From contig CABYIF010000002.1 in assembly GCA_902518985.1 (NCBI GenBank), positions 4,660-68,659 on the forward strand: a DNA stretch of 64,000 nucleotides, read 5' to 3'. Of this stretch, positions 50,389-55,268 are shown in pieces (the stretch's first letter is position 1; each line of letters begins with the position of its first letter). The position numbers and the translations under genes are program-made. The notes beneath the pieces were generated by a model. That model worked only from the letters and a program-made list of their open reading frames with translations. It had not been told where the DNA came from and searched no databases. The DNA is from an uncultured Alphaproteobacteria bacterium. GTDB taxonomy: Bacteria > Pseudomonadota > Alphaproteobacteria > HIMB59 > GCA-002718135.

Positions 50389-51183
50389 ATGAACAATAAA
50401 AGAACTTCTGATTTATTAAATAAAGATCATATTAAATTTTTAATTTCTATTTTTGAAAATAATAATGCTGAAATTCGTTTAGTAGGTGGTTGTATAAGGG
50501 ACATATTTCTTAACAAGGTAAGTAAAGATATTGATACTGCAACTGATATTAAGCCAAATGAAATTATAGAAATACTTAATAAAAACAAAATTGAATATGA
50601 TGATTTTGCTATTCAATATGGATCCATTATTTCTTATCCCTTAGAACATAAAGTTCAAATCACTACATTAAGAGAGGATGTTAATCAAATGGGGAGACAT
50701 ACAAATGTAATTTATACAAAAGATTGGCAAAAGGATGCAGCAAGAAGAGATTTTACATTTAATGCAATGTATCTTGGAAGTGATAACAAATTATTTGACT
50801 ATTTTAATGGTCAAGAAGACATTAAAGAAATGAAAATTAGGTTTATAGGTGAAATAGAAGAGAGGATTAAAGAGGATTATCTTCGCATATATCGCTATTT
50901 TAGATTTCTTGGTCTATTCGAATTACCAAATATTACCTTAAAGGATCAAAAAATTGTTGAAAAGTATATTCATGAATCTTTATCAGTATTAACTAATGAT
51001 ATGATAAGACAGGAGGTATTAAAAATGTTTAATATGCTATATCCTCTAAATTGTTTTAATAAATCCCACCAAACACAAATTAAATTTAAATGGGTTGAAA
51101 TAATTAAAGAACATTTTATTCGAACAAATTATGAACTTGGTTTAAATAAATGTTTAAATAAAATTGATAATATAATTAATTAA
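50389..51183 (+). CDS. class II tRNA nucleotidyltransferase / poly(A) polymerase family protein, unusually short (264 aa)
   Basis: Head and neck motifs are present: GGCIRD, DIDTAT, TLRED, RRDFTFNAMY and EDYLRIYRYFRF. Only about 90 aa follow motif E. Confidence 0.7.
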   Translation: MNNKRTSDLLNKDHIKFLISIFENNNAEIRLVGGCIRDIFLNKVSKDIDTATDIKPNEIIEILNKNKIEYDDFAIQYGSIISYPLEHKVQITTLREDVNQMGRHTNVIYTKDWQKDAARRDFTFNAMYLGSDNKLFDYFNGQEDIKEMKIRFIGEIEERIKEDYLRIYRYFRFLGLFELPNITLKDQKIVEKYIHESLSVLTNDMIRQEVLKMFNMLYPLNCFNKSHQTQIKFKWVEIIKEHFIRTNYELGLNKCLNKIDNIIN

Positions 51184-51584
51184 TTTTTAAATTTACAACT
51201 TTCACATAAACCATAAATCTCTAAGCTATGCTTTCTATATTGAAAATTATTTTTATCAGATTGTTTTGAAAAGTAGCTAATCAAGTTATTTCCAGTTAAT
51301 TCTTTAACTTTATCACAATTTTCACATATTAAAAAAGAAGTGGAGGTTTTAGCAGTACATCCCTCATGTTTACATGCAATGTATGAGTTCCTACTTTCTA
51401 TTTTATGCACTTTTCCAATTTCAATTAATTTATCTAGTGCTCTATAAACTTGAAGGGGAGATTTAATTCCTTTCTTCTGAATATCAAAAAGAATTGTATA
51501 TGCTTTTAGAGGTTCTGATGAGCTTTCCAAAATATCAAGAACTGTTTGTTGATTTTTAGTTAATATTAACGTTTCTAAAGCCAT
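51180..51584 (-). CDS. zur: Fur-family transcriptional regulator, probable zinc uptake regulator Zur
   Basis: It has a winged-helix N-terminus and CxxC pairs (CKHEGC, CENC, CESC). It is the last gene of the znuC-znuB-zur unit. Confidence 0.7.
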   Translation of the reverse strand: MALETLILTKNQQTVLDILESSSEPLKAYTILFDIQKKGIKSPLQVYRALDKLIEIGKVHKIESRNSYIACKHEGCTAKTSTSFLICENCDKVKELTGNNLISYFSKQSDKNNFQYRKHSLEIYGLCESCKFKN

Positions 51585-51603
51585 CAGTTAAATTACCAAA
51601 TTG

Positions 51604-52410
51604 TTATCGTTTTTGCAACTGGCCTCTAATTTCAAGAGGAAGCAATGAAATAATGAAAAGCATTAAGGCAACAACAATAATTGAAGGACCTGAAGAGGTA
51701 TTTAGTTCTAAAGAAGCAAATAGACCAACAACTACTGATAAAATACCAGATAAGATTGTAATTAAAATCATTTGTCTAGGACTACTACTAATGTTTCTAG
51801 CAATAGCAGCAGGAATTAAAAGTAAACCTGTAATTAATAGAGCACCAATCATTTTAATTGATAAAGCAATTACACCTGCTAATAAAAGTGTAAATATAAA
51901 GTTAGAAATCTCCGGCCTCATTCCTTCAGCTGCCGACAAATCATAATTTACAGTTGCGGAAAATAAAGATTTCCAAATAAAATATAAGATAATTAATATT
52001 ATGCCTCCGCCTATCCAAACTAACGCAATATCTGCTGTTGTTACAGCAAGAATATCTCCAAACAATAATCCCATGAGATCAAATCGGATGTAAGATAAAA
52101 AACCAATTAATACTAAACCAATGGCAAGTGTAGAGTGAGCAAGAAGTCCAAGTAAAGAATCGCCAGCCAACTTTGTTCTTTTTTGTAAGCTAACAAGAAG
52201 TAAAGCAACAACAGTTGAAATTACAAAAACAGAAAAAGCAATATTTATACTTAATGAGTAAGCTAATGTTACTCCTAAAAGAGCAGAATGAGATAAAGTG
52301 TCACCAAAATAGGACAACCTTCTCCAGATAACTAAGCATCCAAGTGGTCCAGAAACTATCGCTATCCCAACCCCTGCAAAAATTGCACGAATAAAAAAAT
52401 CATCAAACAT
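51604..52410 (-). CDS. znuB: zinc ABC transporter permease
   Basis: ABC-3 family permease (GDTLSHSALLGV, ...). It sits in znu context. Confidence 0.85.
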   Translation of the reverse strand: MFDDFFIRAIFAGVGIAIVSGPLGCLVIWRRLSYFGDTLSHSALLGVTLAYSLSINIAFSVFVISTVVALLLVSLQKRTKLAGDSLLGLLAHSTLAIGLVLIGFLSYIRFDLMGLLFGDILAVTTADIALVWIGGGIILIILYFIWKSLFSATVNYDLSAAEGMRPEISNFIFTLLLAGVIALSIKMIGALLITGLLLIPAAIARNISSSPRQMILITILSGILSVVVGLFASLELNTSSGPSIIVVALMLFIISLLPLEIRGQLQKR

Positions 52411-53153
52411 TAGTTTTTAACACTCCCATCTGTCTGATGTGAGTGATCGTGCTCATGTTGGTAGAGAGATAAGGTGGCAGCGTTATGTTCTCCAAATAAT
52501 TCTATGTAAGAAGAATTTTTTACTATAGAGTTGGGCGATCCAGAGCAACAAATGTGCCCATTTAAGCAAATTACATGATCTGTCGCGGACATTACAAAAT
52601 GTAGATCATGAGATATTAGAAGGATACCACAATTTAACTTAGTACAAATTTTTTTTATTAGATCGTAGAGAGCGATTTCTCCATTAAAATCTACACCTTG
52701 TACAGGTTCATCTAAAACAAGTAGATCTGGTTTTTTAGCTATTGCTCTTGCTATTAAAACTCTCTGAAATTCTCCACCAGATAAGTTATGAATTTCATTG
52801 TACATTAAATGCTGAACCCCTGTTAATTTCAAATCTTCAATAATTTCCTCTTTATTGATGTTACTAGTTAGATTCATAAAATCTATAACTCGAAGTGGCA
52901 TAGTCCAATCAATACTAATTTTTTGTGGAACATATGCCATTTTTTTTGAATAATTCTCAATTGAACCTTCATCTGATTTAAGAATCTTAAGTGCCATTTT
53001 AGCTGTAGTTGTTTTTCCTGAACCATTTGGACCAATTAAAGTTACAATTTTACCCTTATTAATTTCAAGTGAGATGCCTTTTACAATCCATTTTGAAGAT
53101 TTTTGAACACCACAATCTTTTAATCTTACCAATAAATCATTATTTTTGTTCAT
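52410..53153 (-). CDS. znuC: zinc ABC transporter ATP-binding protein
   Basis: Walker A GPNGSGKTT, LSGGEFQR and LVLDEP motifs are present, along with a His-rich C-terminus (HEHDHSHQ). Confidence 0.85.
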   Translation of the reverse strand: MNKNNDLLVRLKDCGVQKSSKWIVKGISLEINKGKIVTLIGPNGSGKTTTAKMALKILKSDEGSIENYSKKMAYVPQKISIDWTMPLRVIDFMNLTSNINKEEIIEDLKLTGVQHLMYNEIHNLSGGEFQRVLIARAIAKKPDLLVLDEPVQGVDFNGEIALYDLIKKICTKLNCGILLISHDLHFVMSATDHVICLNGHICCSGSPNSIVKNSSYIELFGEHNAATLSLYQHEHDHSHQTDGSVKN

Positions 53154-53175: not shown

Positions 53176-53193
53176 GTAATATTATAACATTAC
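53176..53193. promoter_or_regulatory. candidate Zur box (18-nt near-palindrome GTAATATTATAACATTAC) in the znuC/znuA divergent promoter
   Basis: 8 of 9 positions are self-complementary. It is centred in the 79-nt spacer between znuC (start 53153, minus) and znuA (start 53233, plus). It resembles the AT-rich GTAATGTTATAACATTAC-type Zur operators described for alphaproteobacteria. Confidence 0.6.
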
Positions 53194-53232: not shown

Positions 53233-54243
53233 ATGAGACAAAACAACTTTTTTTTGATGCTTTTCAAAGTATTTTTATTTTCGTCAATTCTATTTTCAAC
53301 TTCAGCTGCTAGAGCAGAATTAAAAGTTGTTACTACGATCAAACCACTTTATTCACTAATTGCCAATGTAATGGATGGTTTAGGTGAGCCAGAACTTATA
53401 ATTGAAGGAAGTACTTCTCCGCATAGTTTTACATTAAAACCCTCGCATGCTAAACTTTTAGAAGAAGCAGATATTATTTTTTGGGTTGGTGAAGGATTAG
53501 AAACATTTATGGAGAGACCTCTTGAGTCAATTGTCAAAAATGCAGAAGTTGTAGAGTTCATGGAATTTCAAAGTATTAATAAATTGAAGTTTAGAGAAGA
53601 GTCAATTTTTGAAGGTCACGACGATCACGATGACCACGACGATCATGAAGATCACGACGATCATGACGACCAAGATGACCACGATGACCACGATGACCAC
53701 GACGACCACGACGATCACGATGACCACGGTCATGCACATGGTGAATTCGATGCTCACATTTGGCTAGATCCAATGAATGCTAAAGAAATGATTCATGAAA
53801 TTGCTCATGAGTTAGGAGATTTAGATCCAGCAAATAAAAATAAATATGAAGCTAATGCACAAGCTACAATCCAAGCACTAGATCAATTAGTTAACAATAT
53901 TGAAAAAGAAGTAAATAAAGATGCAAAGTTTGTAGTCTTCCATGATGCTTATCAATACTTTGAAGAAAGATTTGGAGTTAGAGCTGCTGGAGCGCTTACT
54001 TTGAATACGGATGTTTTACCTGGTGCTAAACAAATTGCTGATATTCAAGATGTAATTAAAGATAGAGCAATAAAATGTATTTTCTCTGAACCACAGTTCA
54101 ATCCAAAGATAATTACAACGATAGCTGAAGATATGAATATCAAAACAGGAGTTTTTGATCCTCTAGGTGCTAATATTGACTTAAATAAAGATCTTTATTT
54201 TAAGTTAATACAAAACTTAGGAGATGAACTTAAAGATTGTTAG
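53233..54243 (+). CDS. znuA: zinc ABC transporter periplasmic substrate-binding protein
   Basis: It has a signal peptide and a cluster-9 SBP fold (HSFTLKPS, DAHIWLDP, FHDAYQYF). A long His/Asp-rich loop is present. Confidence 0.9.
   Translation: MRQNNFFLMLFKVFLFSSILFSTSAARAELKVVTTIKPLYSLIANVMDGLGEPELIIEGSTSPHSFTLKPSHAKLLEEADIIFWVGEGLETFMERPLESIVKNAEVVEFMEFQSINKLKFREESIFEGHDDHDDHDDHEDHDDHDDQDDHDDHDDHDDHDDHDDHGHAHGEFDAHIWLDPMNAKEMIHEIAHELGDLDPANKNKYEANAQATIQALDQLVNNIEKEVNKDAKFVVFHDAYQYFEERFGVRAAGALTLNTDVLPGAKQIADIQDVIKDRAIKCIFSEPQFNPKIITTIAEDMNIKTGVFDPLGANIDLNKDLYFKLIQNLGDELKDC
53617..53739 (+). repeat. in-frame tandem 9-nt repeat (CAY GAY GAY)x12 encoding (HDD)n plus HGHAH in the ZnuA loop
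   Basis: Read directly: HDD HDD HDD HED HDD HDD QDD HDD HDD HDD HDD HDD HGHAH. It forms a GC-rich island. Confidence 0.9.
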
Positions 54244-54272: not shown

Positions 54273-54297
54273 GAGGGTGTTAATTAGCAGCACCCTC
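54273..54297. terminator. 7-bp GC-rich hairpin (GAGGGTG-N11-CACCCTC) between convergent znuA and the Cys-rich ORF
   Basis: The stem was read directly from the sequence. The loop contains the stop codon of the minus-strand small ORF. On the minus strand an A/U-rich tail follows, and on the plus strand there is no clean U-tract. Confidence 0.3.
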
Positions 54298-54367
54298 CAC
54301 CTTCACAAGTACAGCAACAGCTACAACTGCAACCACACTTTGGTGGGTTTGGATTTTGATTTTTCAT
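54284..54367 (-). CDS. hypothetical 27-aa cysteine-rich peptide (metallothionein-like): MKNQNPNPPKCGCSCSCCCTCEGGGCC
   Basis: Manual translation gives ATG (54365..54367) through TAA (54284..54286), 28 codons including stop, with 9 Cys. It forms a GC-rich patch in an A/T spacer. It is not in the ORF track because of its short length. Confidence 0.45.
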   Translation of the reverse strand: MKNQNPNPPKCGCSCSCCCTCEGGGCC

Positions 54368-54410
54368 AATTATACCTATATCTATATTTAGATAATTTAT
54401 AAACAAATTT

Positions 54411-55268
54411 ATGAGAAAAATAATAGAAATTAAAGAGTGTATGAAGACTTTCGAGGGTGACGGGATACCTGTAACGAGAGCCTTCCCCGTTCCTGGAATG
54501 AGAGAAAATGATCCATTTCTTCTTTTTGATCATTTTGGCCCAATTAATTATGAACCAGGAGGTGCAACTGGTGTACCAGCGCATCCTCATTGCGGATTTG
54601 AGGCAATCACTTATATGCTTGGTGGTGAAGTAGAACACAGAGATTCATTTGGCGGACAAGCAGAAATTGAAACAGGTGATGTACAATGGATGACAACTGG
54701 ATCAGGTTTAATTCACTCTGAATTGGTAACAGAAAAATTTAAGAAGAGTGGTGGGGTTATGCAGGGATTACAAATCTGGGTTAACCTTCCACAAAAAAAT
54801 AAAAAAGTGAAACCTTGGTATCAACATATTAAGAAAAATACTATTCCATCGGTATCTGAAAATGCAAATATAGAAATTAAAGTTCTTGTAGGTGAAATAA
54901 ATGGAACCAAATCCAAAGTTCAAACATATTCACCTGTATCAATATTCGATATTCAATTTTCAAAACCAGATATGACAAAGCTTAATGTCGATAAAGAACA
55001 AAATCTTATGATCTATATTATTGATGGTCAGTTACAATTCAACAACAATGATAAGATTGCTAATAAAGGTGATATGATTTATTTTGATCAGTCAAGTGAT
55101 GAGATTCAACTTACGTCAATATCTGAAAAGGGGTCCTATCTGGTTTTAGCTGGAAAGCCGCTTAAAGAATCTGTAGCACGTTATGGTCCTTTTGTGGCAA
55201 ATTCTGAGGGAGAAATCAAGCAAGCTATGATGGATTATCAAGAAGGAAAGATGGGAAGTTTAGCTTAA
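54411..55268 (+). CDS. pirin family protein
   Basis: The cupin metal site HPHCGFEAITYMLGG and the bicupin length (285 aa) fit the family. Confidence 0.9.
   Translation: MRKIIEIKECMKTFEGDGIPVTRAFPVPGMRENDPFLLFDHFGPINYEPGGATGVPAHPHCGFEAITYMLGGEVEHRDSFGGQAEIETGDVQWMTTGSGLIHSELVTEKFKKSGGVMQGLQIWVNLPQKNKKVKPWYQHIKKNTIPSVSENANIEIKVLVGEINGTKSKVQTYSPVSIFDIQFSKPDMTKLNVDKEQNLMIYIIDGQLQFNNNDKIANKGDMIYFDQSSDEIQLTSISEKGSYLVLAGKPLKESVARYGPFVANSEGEIKQAMMDYQEGKMGSLA

What the first reader, a model, noticed from the sequence alone, without database searches (positions are those of the whole stretch)
54284..54367. Unlisted 27-codon ORF encoding a 9-cysteine, metallothionein-like peptide beside the zinc-uptake locus
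Seen in sequence: the minus strand reads ATG AAA AAT CAA AAT CCA AAC CCA CCA AAG TGT GGT TGC AGT TGT AGC TGT TGC TGT ACT TGT GAA GGT GGA GGG TGC TGC TAA, which is MKNQNPNPPKCGCSCSCCCTCEGGGCC. It is too short for the supplied track. The track instead shows a frame-shifted 105-aa shadow ORF (54321..54638) running antisense through pirin. This stretch is the only GC-rich patch in the 167-nt A/T spacer between znuA and pirin. Its composition is explained by alternating TGY (Cys) and Gly/Ser/Thr codons rather than by an extended RNA fold that I can find. Established knowledge: dense CxC/CC clusters in peptides of about 25-30 aa are the hallmark of small thiolate-cluster metallothioneins (for example the ~25-aa, 7-Cys fungal Cu-MT). 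The peptide does not resemble the SmtA/BmtA zinc-finger-type bacterial MT. Inference: its position next to the Zur-box-controlled znuA and znuCB-zur suggests a metal (Zn/Cu/Cd) buffering or storage peptide, which would be a new miniature bacterial MT class. One alternative is a Cys/Ser/Thr/Gly-rich core of an orphan RiPP precursor (thiazole/oxazole type), but no modification genes are nearby. The other alternative is a chance ORF.
Basis: partly seen in the sequence, partly recalled or inferred. Interest (0 to 1): 0.8.

Follow-up and report, generated by a model that had tools for sequence, protein, structure and literature searches.

The report
Conserved 27-residue nine-cysteine peptide gene
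A tiny unannotated gene at the end of the zinc-uptake operon of an abundant marine bacterial group (HIMB59/AEGEAN-169) encodes a 27-residue peptide that is one-third cysteine and is kept almost unchanged by selection; it is most likely a new miniature metal-binding (metallothionein-like) peptide, but metal binding has not been tested.

Summary
I found it in 57 loci from single-cell genomes and marine metagenomes. These gave 55 complete copies and 32 nucleotide haplotypes. 23 of 31 variable sites are third codon positions, every Cys codon switches between TGT and TGC, pN/pS is 0.045, and the stop is always at codon 28. It is the only one of six frames open in all haplotypes. The peptide stays 81-100% identical (nearly all copies 96-100%) while neighbouring ZnuA drops to 72%. 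Its left neighbour is pirin or murJ. Its right neighbour is znuA or a znuA-cobW-WD40-p84 operon. It always sits convergent to the 3' end of the Zur-box-controlled znuA operon. In many loci it has its own hairpin-plus-U terminator. It has no Zur box of its own, matches no Pfam, NCBIfam or PDB entry, and has no wider homologues among 1.84 billion protein representatives. No modification enzymes lie nearby and I found no literature on it. Its composition meets the operational definition of a metallothionein (33% Cys, CxC/CC motifs, no aromatic residues or His; nine Cys as in Zn3Cys9 clusters). Function is inferred: probably a cytosolic metal-thiolate buffer linked to zinc homeostasis. One copy has a frameshift, one has lost its start codon, and a sister genus lacks the gene at this position.

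The parts
54284..54367 (-). Coding sequence of the 27-aa, 9-Cys peptide (ATG 54367-54365, TAA 54286-54284)
   Evidence: Searches give the sequence; 57 loci, 32 haplotypes, pN/pS 0.045, the only frame open in all haplotypes, stop always at codon 28.
54273..54297 (-). Hairpin GAGGGTG-(11 nt)-CACCCTC overlapping codons 24-27 and the stop, followed by an A/T-rich tail. Probable terminator of the peptide transcript; weak in this window.
   Evidence: In murJ/znuA-type loci the equivalent hairpin is -24 kcal/mol (z -5.0) and is followed by UUUUU on the peptide-sense strand. It is absent in loci where p84 lies downstream.
54380..54389 (-). AAATATAGAT, the only upstream block shared between the pirin-side and murJ-side contexts. 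Candidate -10 region of the peptide promoter (inference).
   Evidence: alignment of 38 distinct upstream regions. The consensus promoter scan was uninformative in this A/T-rich DNA.
53233..54243 (+). znuA (periplasmic zinc-binding protein), convergent with the peptide gene; the two stop codons are 40 nt apart
   Evidence: PF01297, 1.3e-68; a znuA operon end lies downstream of the peptide in every locus with enough flank.
53176..53193 (.). Zur-box-like palindrome in the znuC/znuA divergent promoter region
   Evidence: 1 mismatch to GTAATGTTATAACATTAC, the only match in the window; conserved at the same place in related loci and never upstream of the peptide.
51180..53153 (-). znuC (52410-53153), znuB (51604-52410) and zur (51180-51584)
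   Evidence: ABC_tran, ABC-3, FUR; the best NCBIfam match of the regulator is Zur.

Best explanation
This is a genuine, independently transcribed gene for a 27-residue cytosolic peptide. Its 17-residue C-terminal half, CGCSCSCCCTCEGGGCC, carries nine thiols. The most likely function is a miniature metallothionein: the thiolates wrap a small metal cluster and buffer or store metal in the cytoplasm. By analogy with nine-Cys domains, the cluster would hold about three Zn(II)/Cd(II) or several Cu(I). The gene is invariably placed tail-to-tail with the Zur-repressed znuA operon, so zinc is the most probable physiological metal. Shown here: the ORF is under strong purifying selection at the amino-acid level, it is fixed at the 3' end of the znuA operon while both flanks are swapped, it has its own terminator in many genomes, and it has no Zur box. 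Inferred: it binds metal, that metal is zinc, and expression is coupled to zinc status. One possible coupling is convergent transcription. The hairpin has a U-tract only on the peptide-sense strand, so read-through from derepressed znuA would run antisense across the 84-nt gene and lower peptide synthesis when zinc is scarce.
For: The coding signal is strong. 23 of 31 variable sites are at codon position 3 (binomial P 3.9e-6). Every Cys codon switches between TGT and TGC. pN/pS is 0.045 overall and 0.050 in codons 17-27, which were not used to find the loci. The other five frames have stops and/or pN/pS of 0.13-8.5. The peptide is 81-100% identical (nearly all copies 96-100%) where ZnuA is 72-95% identical. 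The host genomes belong to genus AG-337-I02 of order HIMB59, with about 71% ANI between the groups that carry it. Conservation starts exactly at the ATG; upstream in-frame extensions are unrelated between contexts. All four combinations occur: pirin or murJ upstream, znuA or p84-WD40-cobW-znuA downstream. A hairpin of -24 kcal/mol with a U5 tail lies on the peptide strand. Composition: 33% Cys against 1.0% in the window's long ORFs, four CxC motifs, one CCC and one CC, and no aromatic residues or His. Nine Cys is the ligand count of Zn3Cys9 clusters in mammalian beta-domains (PMC10243857 abstract) and of Zn3Cys9His in a Pseudomonas metallothionein (PMC7387436). There is a precedent for pairing znuABC with a metallothionein in an oligotrophic marine bacterium, Synechococcus WH8102 (PMC9337993).
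Against: There is no experimental or expression evidence. The peptide gene has no Zur box or other recognisable metal-sensor operator upstream. It has no sequence similarity to any metallothionein family in Pfam, NCBIfam or PDB, so the assignment rests on composition. Non-Cys residues, including the N-terminal NxNPNPPK, are as conserved as the cysteines. That is unusual for metallothioneins and hints at a specific partner or processing step. One single-cell genome (L081) has a 1-nt deletion that removes the last two Cys, one contig (L115) has ATA in place of ATG, and a sister-genus genome (L048) lacks the gene at this position. The metagenome loci were retrieved by exact 8-residue patterns covering residues 1-8 or 9-16, so divergent variants would have been missed.
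Confidence: 0.55

Rival explanations
1. It is a metal-thiolate peptide, but for copper or cadmium detoxification, or a general thiol/redox buffer. On this reading, its position beside znuA is inherited gene order without functional meaning.
For: CxC/CC-rich peptides of about 25 residues are best known as fungal Cu(I)-thioneins (my own knowledge, not tested here). The gene has no Zur box. All carriers belong to one narrow clade, so shared ancestry could explain the synteny.
Against: Both flanks have been replaced independently, and a 2.3-kb cassette has been inserted or lost exactly between the peptide and znuA. Even so, the peptide always stays at the operon end. No copper or cadmium genes lie nearby in any context.
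Confidence: 0.17
2. It is the precursor of a modified peptide or cofactor (RiPP-like). MKNQNPNPPK would be a short leader or recognition segment and the Cys/Ser/Thr/Gly-rich 17-mer the core, matured by enzymes encoded elsewhere in the genome.
For: The core composition resembles thiazole/oxazole-type cores. The N-terminal segment is under strong purifying selection with synonymous changes at N5, P6, N7, P8, P9 and K10, as expected for a recognition sequence.
Against: No YcaO, radical-SAM, lanthionine-synthetase or peptidase genes lie within about 10 kb in the window or in any of the four contexts. A 10-residue leader is very short. RiPP cores are usually variable, whereas this one is invariant. 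The hosts are streamlined genomes of about 1.4-2.1 Mb.
Confidence: 0.1
3. It is a regulatory mini-ORF: the act of translating it matters, not the product. Ribosomes reaching the last codons would melt the overlapping terminator hairpin. Cysteinyl-tRNA supply or EF-P-dependent pausing at NPNPP would then set how much transcription reads through antisense into znuA.
For: The terminator's 5' arm lies inside codons 23-27. Nine Cys codons and a PP motif sit in 27 codons. The only thing downstream on this strand is the antisense of znuA.
Against: Selection acts on amino-acid identity at nearly every position, including Gly, Ser, Thr and Glu, which a codon-counting sensor does not need. Loci with p84 downstream have no hairpin, yet the peptide is equally conserved.
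Confidence: 0.06
4. It is a chance ORF inside a non-coding element, for example the znuA terminator or a small RNA.
For: It is very short, no gene caller finds it at its true length, there is no clear Shine-Dalgarno sequence, and a hairpin overlaps its end.
Against: The substitutions show codon-position periodicity, pN/pS is 0.045 and the frame is conserved across 32 haplotypes. Only the last 15 nt of the 84 take part in the hairpin. There is no Rfam match. P is about 2e-8 for the Cys count.
Confidence: 0.02

Closest known systems
Nine-cysteine metal-thiolate domains: the beta-domain of vertebrate metallothionein (Zn3Cys9) and Pseudomonas PflQ2 metallothionein (Zn3Cys9His)
   Same: It has the same number of thiolate ligands, CxC and CC spacing, and no aromatic residues. 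About three divalent ions are expected (PMC10243857 abstract; PMC7387436).
   Different: There is no detectable sequence relationship. This is a free-standing 27-mer rather than a domain of a peptide of 60 or more residues. It has no His ligand. Its non-Cys residues are almost invariant.
Fungal Cu(I)-thioneins of about 25 residues (Neurospora crassa type; recalled from memory, not retrieved here)
   Same: The size class is similar (25-27 aa), and both have a CGCS-type start to a Cys/Gly/Ser-rich core.
   Different: Those are eukaryotic, have seven Cys and are copper-specific. No Pfam metallothionein model matches this peptide. This peptide has nine Cys including a CCC triplet and a terminal CC, and it sits at a zinc-uptake locus.
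SmtA/BmtA bacterial metallothioneins (Pfam PF02069), including Zur-activated bmtA of Synechococcus WH8102
   Same: It would fill the same physiological niche: a cytosolic zinc store or buffer that works alongside Zur-repressed znuABC in an oligotrophic marine bacterium (PMC9337993).
   Different: There is no PF02069 match at E<=10. It has no His or aromatic residues, and it is too short for a zinc-finger-like fold. It has no Zur boxes in its promoter, whereas bmtA has two.
MymT, the mycobacterial Cu(I) metallothionein
   Same: Both are small, lineage-restricted bacterial Cys-rich peptides that automated annotation overlooked (its role is cited in PMC7387436).
   Different: MymT is about twice as long (from memory), functions in copper detoxification, and has an unrelated sequence.

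Membership tests
Metallothionein (operational definition) | Low molecular mass (well under 10 kDa) | tested here: met
   27 residues, and the stop is conserved at codon 28 in all complete copies but one.
Metallothionein (operational definition) | Very high Cys content arranged as CxC, CC or CxxC, with few or no aromatic residues | tested here: met
   9 of 27 residues are Cys (33%), arranged C-G-C-S-C-S-C-C-C-T-C-x4-C-C, with no Phe, Tyr, Trp or His. All nine Cys are conserved in 31-32 of 32 haplotypes.
Metallothionein (operational definition) | Forms metal-thiolate clusters with defined stoichiometry | not testable with these tools
   This needs peptide chemistry (ESI-MS, UV charge-transfer bands, 113Cd NMR).
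Metallothionein (operational definition) | Metal-responsive expression | not testable with these tools
   No transcript data are available. Only the operator search could be done; see the Zur regulon row.
SmtA/BmtA bacterial metallothionein (PF02069) | Match to the family profile; a zinc-finger-like fold with Cys and His ligands | tested here: not met
   No Pfam or NCBIfam hit at E<=10, no PDB sequence hit, and no His in the peptide.
Direct Zur regulon member | Zur box in the gene's own promoter region | tested here: not met
   Boxes with 4 or fewer mismatches occur only in the znuC/znuA intergenic region (apart from two isolated 4-mismatch hits, L106 and L129, elsewhere). None lies upstream of the peptide in any of the 57 loci.
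RiPP precursor (thiazole/oxazole, thiopeptide, sactipeptide/ranthipeptide types) | Co-located maturation enzymes (YcaO/cyclodehydratase, radical SAM and similar) | tested here: not met
   The 20 or so genes within about 10 kb are housekeeping or zinc-uptake genes. No enzyme gene is shared by all four contexts.
RiPP precursor | A leader peptide long enough for recognition (typically 20 aa or more) and a variable core | tested here: not met
   Only 10 residues precede the first Cys, and the core is invariant.
Attenuator leader peptide | Lies upstream of, and on the same strand as, the regulated gene | tested here: not met
   Downstream on this strand is a terminator and then the antisense of znuA or p84.

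The most novel reading that the evidence does not exclude
Streamlined marine heterotrophs of the HIMB59/AEGEAN-169 group carry the smallest known bacterial metallothionein. It would be a 27-residue peptide forming an M3Cys9-type cluster, and it would act as the storage or buffer arm of their zinc economy. Control would come not from a Zur box but from its position. Convergent transcription from the Zur-repressed znuA (or znuA-cobW) operon would silence it when zinc is scarce. The invariant NPNPPK tail would dock it to a partner such as the COG0523 zinc chaperone or the ZnuBC importer.
Probability: 0.3. Interest if true: 0.8.

Novelty: new variant of a known kind. Interest (0 to 1): 0.68.

Why it matters
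Zinc is present at picomolar free concentrations in the surface ocean, and how abundant streamlined heterotrophs manage it is poorly known. HIMB59/AEGEAN-169 is one of those abundant groups. Spending nine cysteines on an invariant 27-residue peptide fixed to the end of the zinc-uptake operon implies an important role. If the peptide binds zinc, it would be a new and minimal class of bacterial metallothionein. It would also be a heterotroph counterpart to the Zur-BmtA zinc 'banking' described in Synechococcus. It would be a chemically tractable model, since a 27-mer can be synthesised, and a marker for zinc status in metatranscriptomes. The finding also shows that a strongly selected gene can be missed at its true length by gene callers because it is shorter than their length cut-off.

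Tried and rejected
- **Exact look-ups:** The 40-aa TTG-extended ORF and the window's pirin are not on record.
- **27-aa query:** It was too short for the big protein search. The 40-aa version returned only the same peptide with spurious N-terminal extensions.
- **Exhaustive profile search:** A search of 1.84 billion representatives found no distant or longer homologues.
- **Family libraries:** Pfam, NCBIfam and PDB gave nothing at E<=10.
- **RNA families:** Rfam gave only noise.
- **Viral contigs:** None carries the peptide.
- **Literature:** Searches for the sequence, for metallothionein in SAR11/HIMB59 and for new bacterial metallothionein families found nothing relevant.
- **Promoter and terminator scan:** The consensus scan was uninformative in 29% GC DNA.
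- **Other taxa:** I looked for comparable Cys-rich mini-ORFs beside znuA in about 75 other loci (SAR11, Rhizobiales and others). Only chance frames turned up.
- **Longer protein rejected:** Upstream in-frame sequence is unrelated between contexts.
- **Plus-strand 32-aa ORF and 105-aa shadow ORF rejected:** Those frames carry stops in other haplotypes or have pN/pS above 1.
- **Structure prediction:** Not run. The peptide is below the tool's size limit, and a metal-dependent fold would not be modelled.

Full report
**1. The observation**

The minus strand of window 54367..54284 reads exactly as reported and translates to MKNQNPNPPKCGCSCSCCCTCEGGGCC*.
- It lies in the 167-nt spacer between znuA (53233-54243, +) and pirin (54411-55268, +).
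- Upstream are znuC, znuB and a Fur-family regulator whose best match is Zur.
- The ORF is the only GC-rich patch in the spacer: 0.52 GC against 0.15-0.18 in the flanks.
- The 105-aa shadow ORF exists.
- A palindrome, GTAATATTATAACATTAC, lies between znuC and znuA at 53176-53193. It has one mismatch to the alphaproteobacterial Zur-box consensus that I used from memory, and it is the only such site in the window.
- Chance is excluded. The window is 28.8% GC, and nine or more Cys in 26 random sense codons has P of about 2e-8. Of 505 small ATG-ORFs in the window the runner-up has five Cys. Long ORFs of the window contain 1.0% Cys.

**2. Is it a gene?**

A ZnuA-based scan of one genome per species returned 80 loci. 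Only the three closest (L001-L003, ZnuA 72-79% identical) carry the ORF, and their peptides are 26-27 of 27 identical. The protein database holds it only as eight entries with unrelated, spurious N-terminal extensions, because the true ORF is shorter than gene callers accept. A metagenome scan added 50 loci from many different marine metagenome assemblies.

In total there are 57 loci, 55 complete copies and 32 nucleotide haplotypes.
- Variable sites fall 5/3/23 on codon positions 1/2/3 (binomial P 3.9e-6).
- Each of the nine Cys codons shows TGT/TGC exchange.
- Pro, Gly, Ser, Thr, Asn, Lys and Glu codons also change synonymously.
- The stop is always codon 28, TAA or TAG.
- Mean pairwise pS is 0.42 and pN is 0.019, giving a ratio of 0.045. 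This is the only one of six frames open in all haplotypes. The others have stops and/or ratios of 0.13-8.5.

One caveat concerns how the loci were found. The metagenome loci were retrieved through exact 8-residue patterns covering residues 1-8 or 9-16. Codons 17-27 were not used for retrieval, and they still give a ratio of 0.050.

Conservation begins exactly at the ATG. Upstream sequence cannot be aligned between contexts. This is a translated gene under strong purifying selection.

Exceptions:
- L081 has a 1-nt deletion that replaces the final CC with a 22-residue tail.
- L115 has ATA in place of ATG.
- L131-133 use an in-frame TTG one codon upstream and carry C18Y.

**3. Who carries it**

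The single-cell genomes behind L001-L003 are classified as order HIMB59 (AEGEAN-169, formerly SAR11 subclade V), family GCA-002718135, genus AG-337-I02. ANI between the carrier groups is about 71% (supplement of PMC10734472). A genome of the sister genus MarineAlpha5-Bin3 (L048) has the znuA-cobW-WD40-p84 operon but no peptide after it. SAR11 proper and other alphaproteobacterial znuA loci have nothing comparable. No viral contig carries it.

**4. Context**

- Upstream, in divergent orientation, the neighbour is either pirin (start codons 40-43 nt apart) or murJ.
- Downstream, in convergent orientation, it is either znuA directly or a longer operon, znuA-cobW(COG0523)-WD40-p84. Once there is an extra DUF1636 gene.
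- All four combinations occur. In every locus with enough flank, the peptide sits tail-to-tail with the end of the operon driven from the Zur-box region.
- ZnuA in these loci is only 72-95% identical, while the peptide is 81-100% identical (nearly all copies 96-100%).
- A Zur box is present in the znuC/znuA intergenic region of most loci whose sequence reaches that far. It is never within four mismatches upstream of the peptide.
- The only upstream block shared across contexts is AAATATAGAT, a plausible -10 region.
- In loci where znuA lies directly downstream, the last codons form the 5' arm of a hairpin. In murJ-type loci it is -24 kcal/mol (z -5.0) and is followed by UUUUU on the peptide strand. 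On the znuA strand the same hairpin lacks a U-tract. The window's version is weaker, a 7-bp stem. Loci with p84 downstream have none.
- The terminator polarity argues that the peptide gene is its own transcription unit.

**5. What it is most likely to do**

Nothing in Pfam, NCBIfam or PDB matches the peptide even at E<=10. A profile search of 1.84 billion protein representatives finds only the peptide itself. The papers library has no record of the sequence or of a metallothionein in SAR11/HIMB59. Function must therefore be inferred from composition and position.

The peptide meets every sequence criterion of the operational metallothionein definition: 27 residues, 33% Cys, CxC/CCC/CC spacing, and no aromatic residues or His. 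Nine thiolates is the ligand set of Zn3Cys9 clusters in mammalian beta-domains (PMC10243857 abstract) and of Zn3Cys9His in a Pseudomonas metallothionein (PMC7387436). A marine precedent exists for pairing znuABC with a zinc-storing metallothionein, although there it is controlled by Zur boxes (PMC9337993).

I therefore favour a cytosolic metal-thiolate buffer tied to zinc homeostasis (confidence about 0.55). Coupling to zinc status could be positional. Read-through from derepressed znuA would run antisense across the 84-nt gene. This step is inference only.

**6. What does not fit, and the rivals**

The N-terminal NxNPNPPK is as constrained as the cysteines, which simple metal buffering does not explain. 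It suggests a partner or a processing step.
- **RiPP or cofactor precursor.** This cannot be excluded, but it has no local support. About 20 genes within roughly 10 kb are housekeeping or zinc-uptake genes. No enzyme gene is common to all contexts, the leader would be only ten residues, and the core is invariant.
- **Translation-sensing mini-ORF controlling antisense read-through.** Amino-acid-level selection at non-Cys positions argues against this. So do the loci that lack the hairpin.
- **Copper, cadmium or redox role with merely inherited synteny.** This remains possible.
- **Chance ORF or pure RNA element.** This is refuted by the codon-position pattern.

**7. Verdict**

The gene is real, unannotated at its true length and apparently undescribed. 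I class it as a new variant of a known kind, a new sequence family of miniature bacterial metallothionein-like peptides. I score interest at 0.68: the evolutionary evidence is strong, the lineage is ecologically important and decisive experiments are easy, but function is still inferred.

Noticed in passing
L081 6001-6144 (SAG assembly GCA_902525035.1, contig CABZFN010000001.1): This copy reads GGTGGGGGTGTTGCTAG where its near-identical relative L094 reads GGTGGAGGATGTTGCTAG. The 1-nt deletion shifts the frame after G25, removes the last two Cys and adds a 22-residue tail (protein P0008). It is either a sequencing error or a decaying allele.
   Followed up: partly
L048 5850-6513 (SAG AG-426-I04, genus MarineAlpha5-Bin3): The sister genus has znuA-cobW-WD40-p84 but no Cys-rich ORF after p84. 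A convergent 185-aa protein with an N-terminal hydrophobic segment (probably secreted) sits there instead. The peptide gene was therefore gained or lost within family GCA-002718135.
   Followed up: partly
L004 2964-3200 (+), SAG AG-333-N20: Downstream of a 64%-identical znuA, on the same strand, a 78-aa Lys-rich ORF ends in ...KKQSSCSCC*. Its last 20 nt (GCAGTTGTAGTTGTTGCTAA) resemble codons 13-19 of the window peptide. It has no Pfam match. It could be chance or a distant relative in another orientation.
   Followed up: partly
L003, L081, L090-L096, L105, L123-L128 (between the peptide and znuA); L092 adds one more gene: A variable cassette, cobW (COG0523 zinc-chaperone-like GTPase) - WD40 beta-propeller - p84, is present or absent between znuA and the peptide. 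p84 is 84 aa, has no family match, and carries a conserved C-H-E-P-(N/D)-C-P-P motif and a C-terminal HTH. L092 also has a DUF1636 gene. L081 and L094 have 100% identical CobW and WD40 proteins but different upstream neighbours (pirin and murJ), so a recombination breakpoint lies at the peptide gene.
   Followed up: partly
window 53233-54243 and ZnuA in L001-L133: The His/Asp-rich loop of ZnuA (HDDHDDHDEDH...) varies widely in length between loci (proteins of 336-387 aa). It accounts for much of the low ZnuA identity and for broken tblastn matches such as L048 and L117.
   Followed up: no
window 54368-54410: Only 43 nt separate the divergent start codons of the peptide gene and pirin. Their promoters must therefore overlap each other or the neighbouring coding sequence. 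A 6-bp inverted repeat, TATCTA-AATA-TAGATA, lies in this stretch in the window, but it is not conserved in murJ-type loci.
   Followed up: partly
L115 214-216; L131-L133 start region: One contig has ATA instead of the ATG start and no in-frame alternative. One haplotype, seen in three contigs, has ATA preceded by an in-frame TTG and also carries K2E, C18Y and G23S. It is the most divergent variant found.
   Followed up: partly
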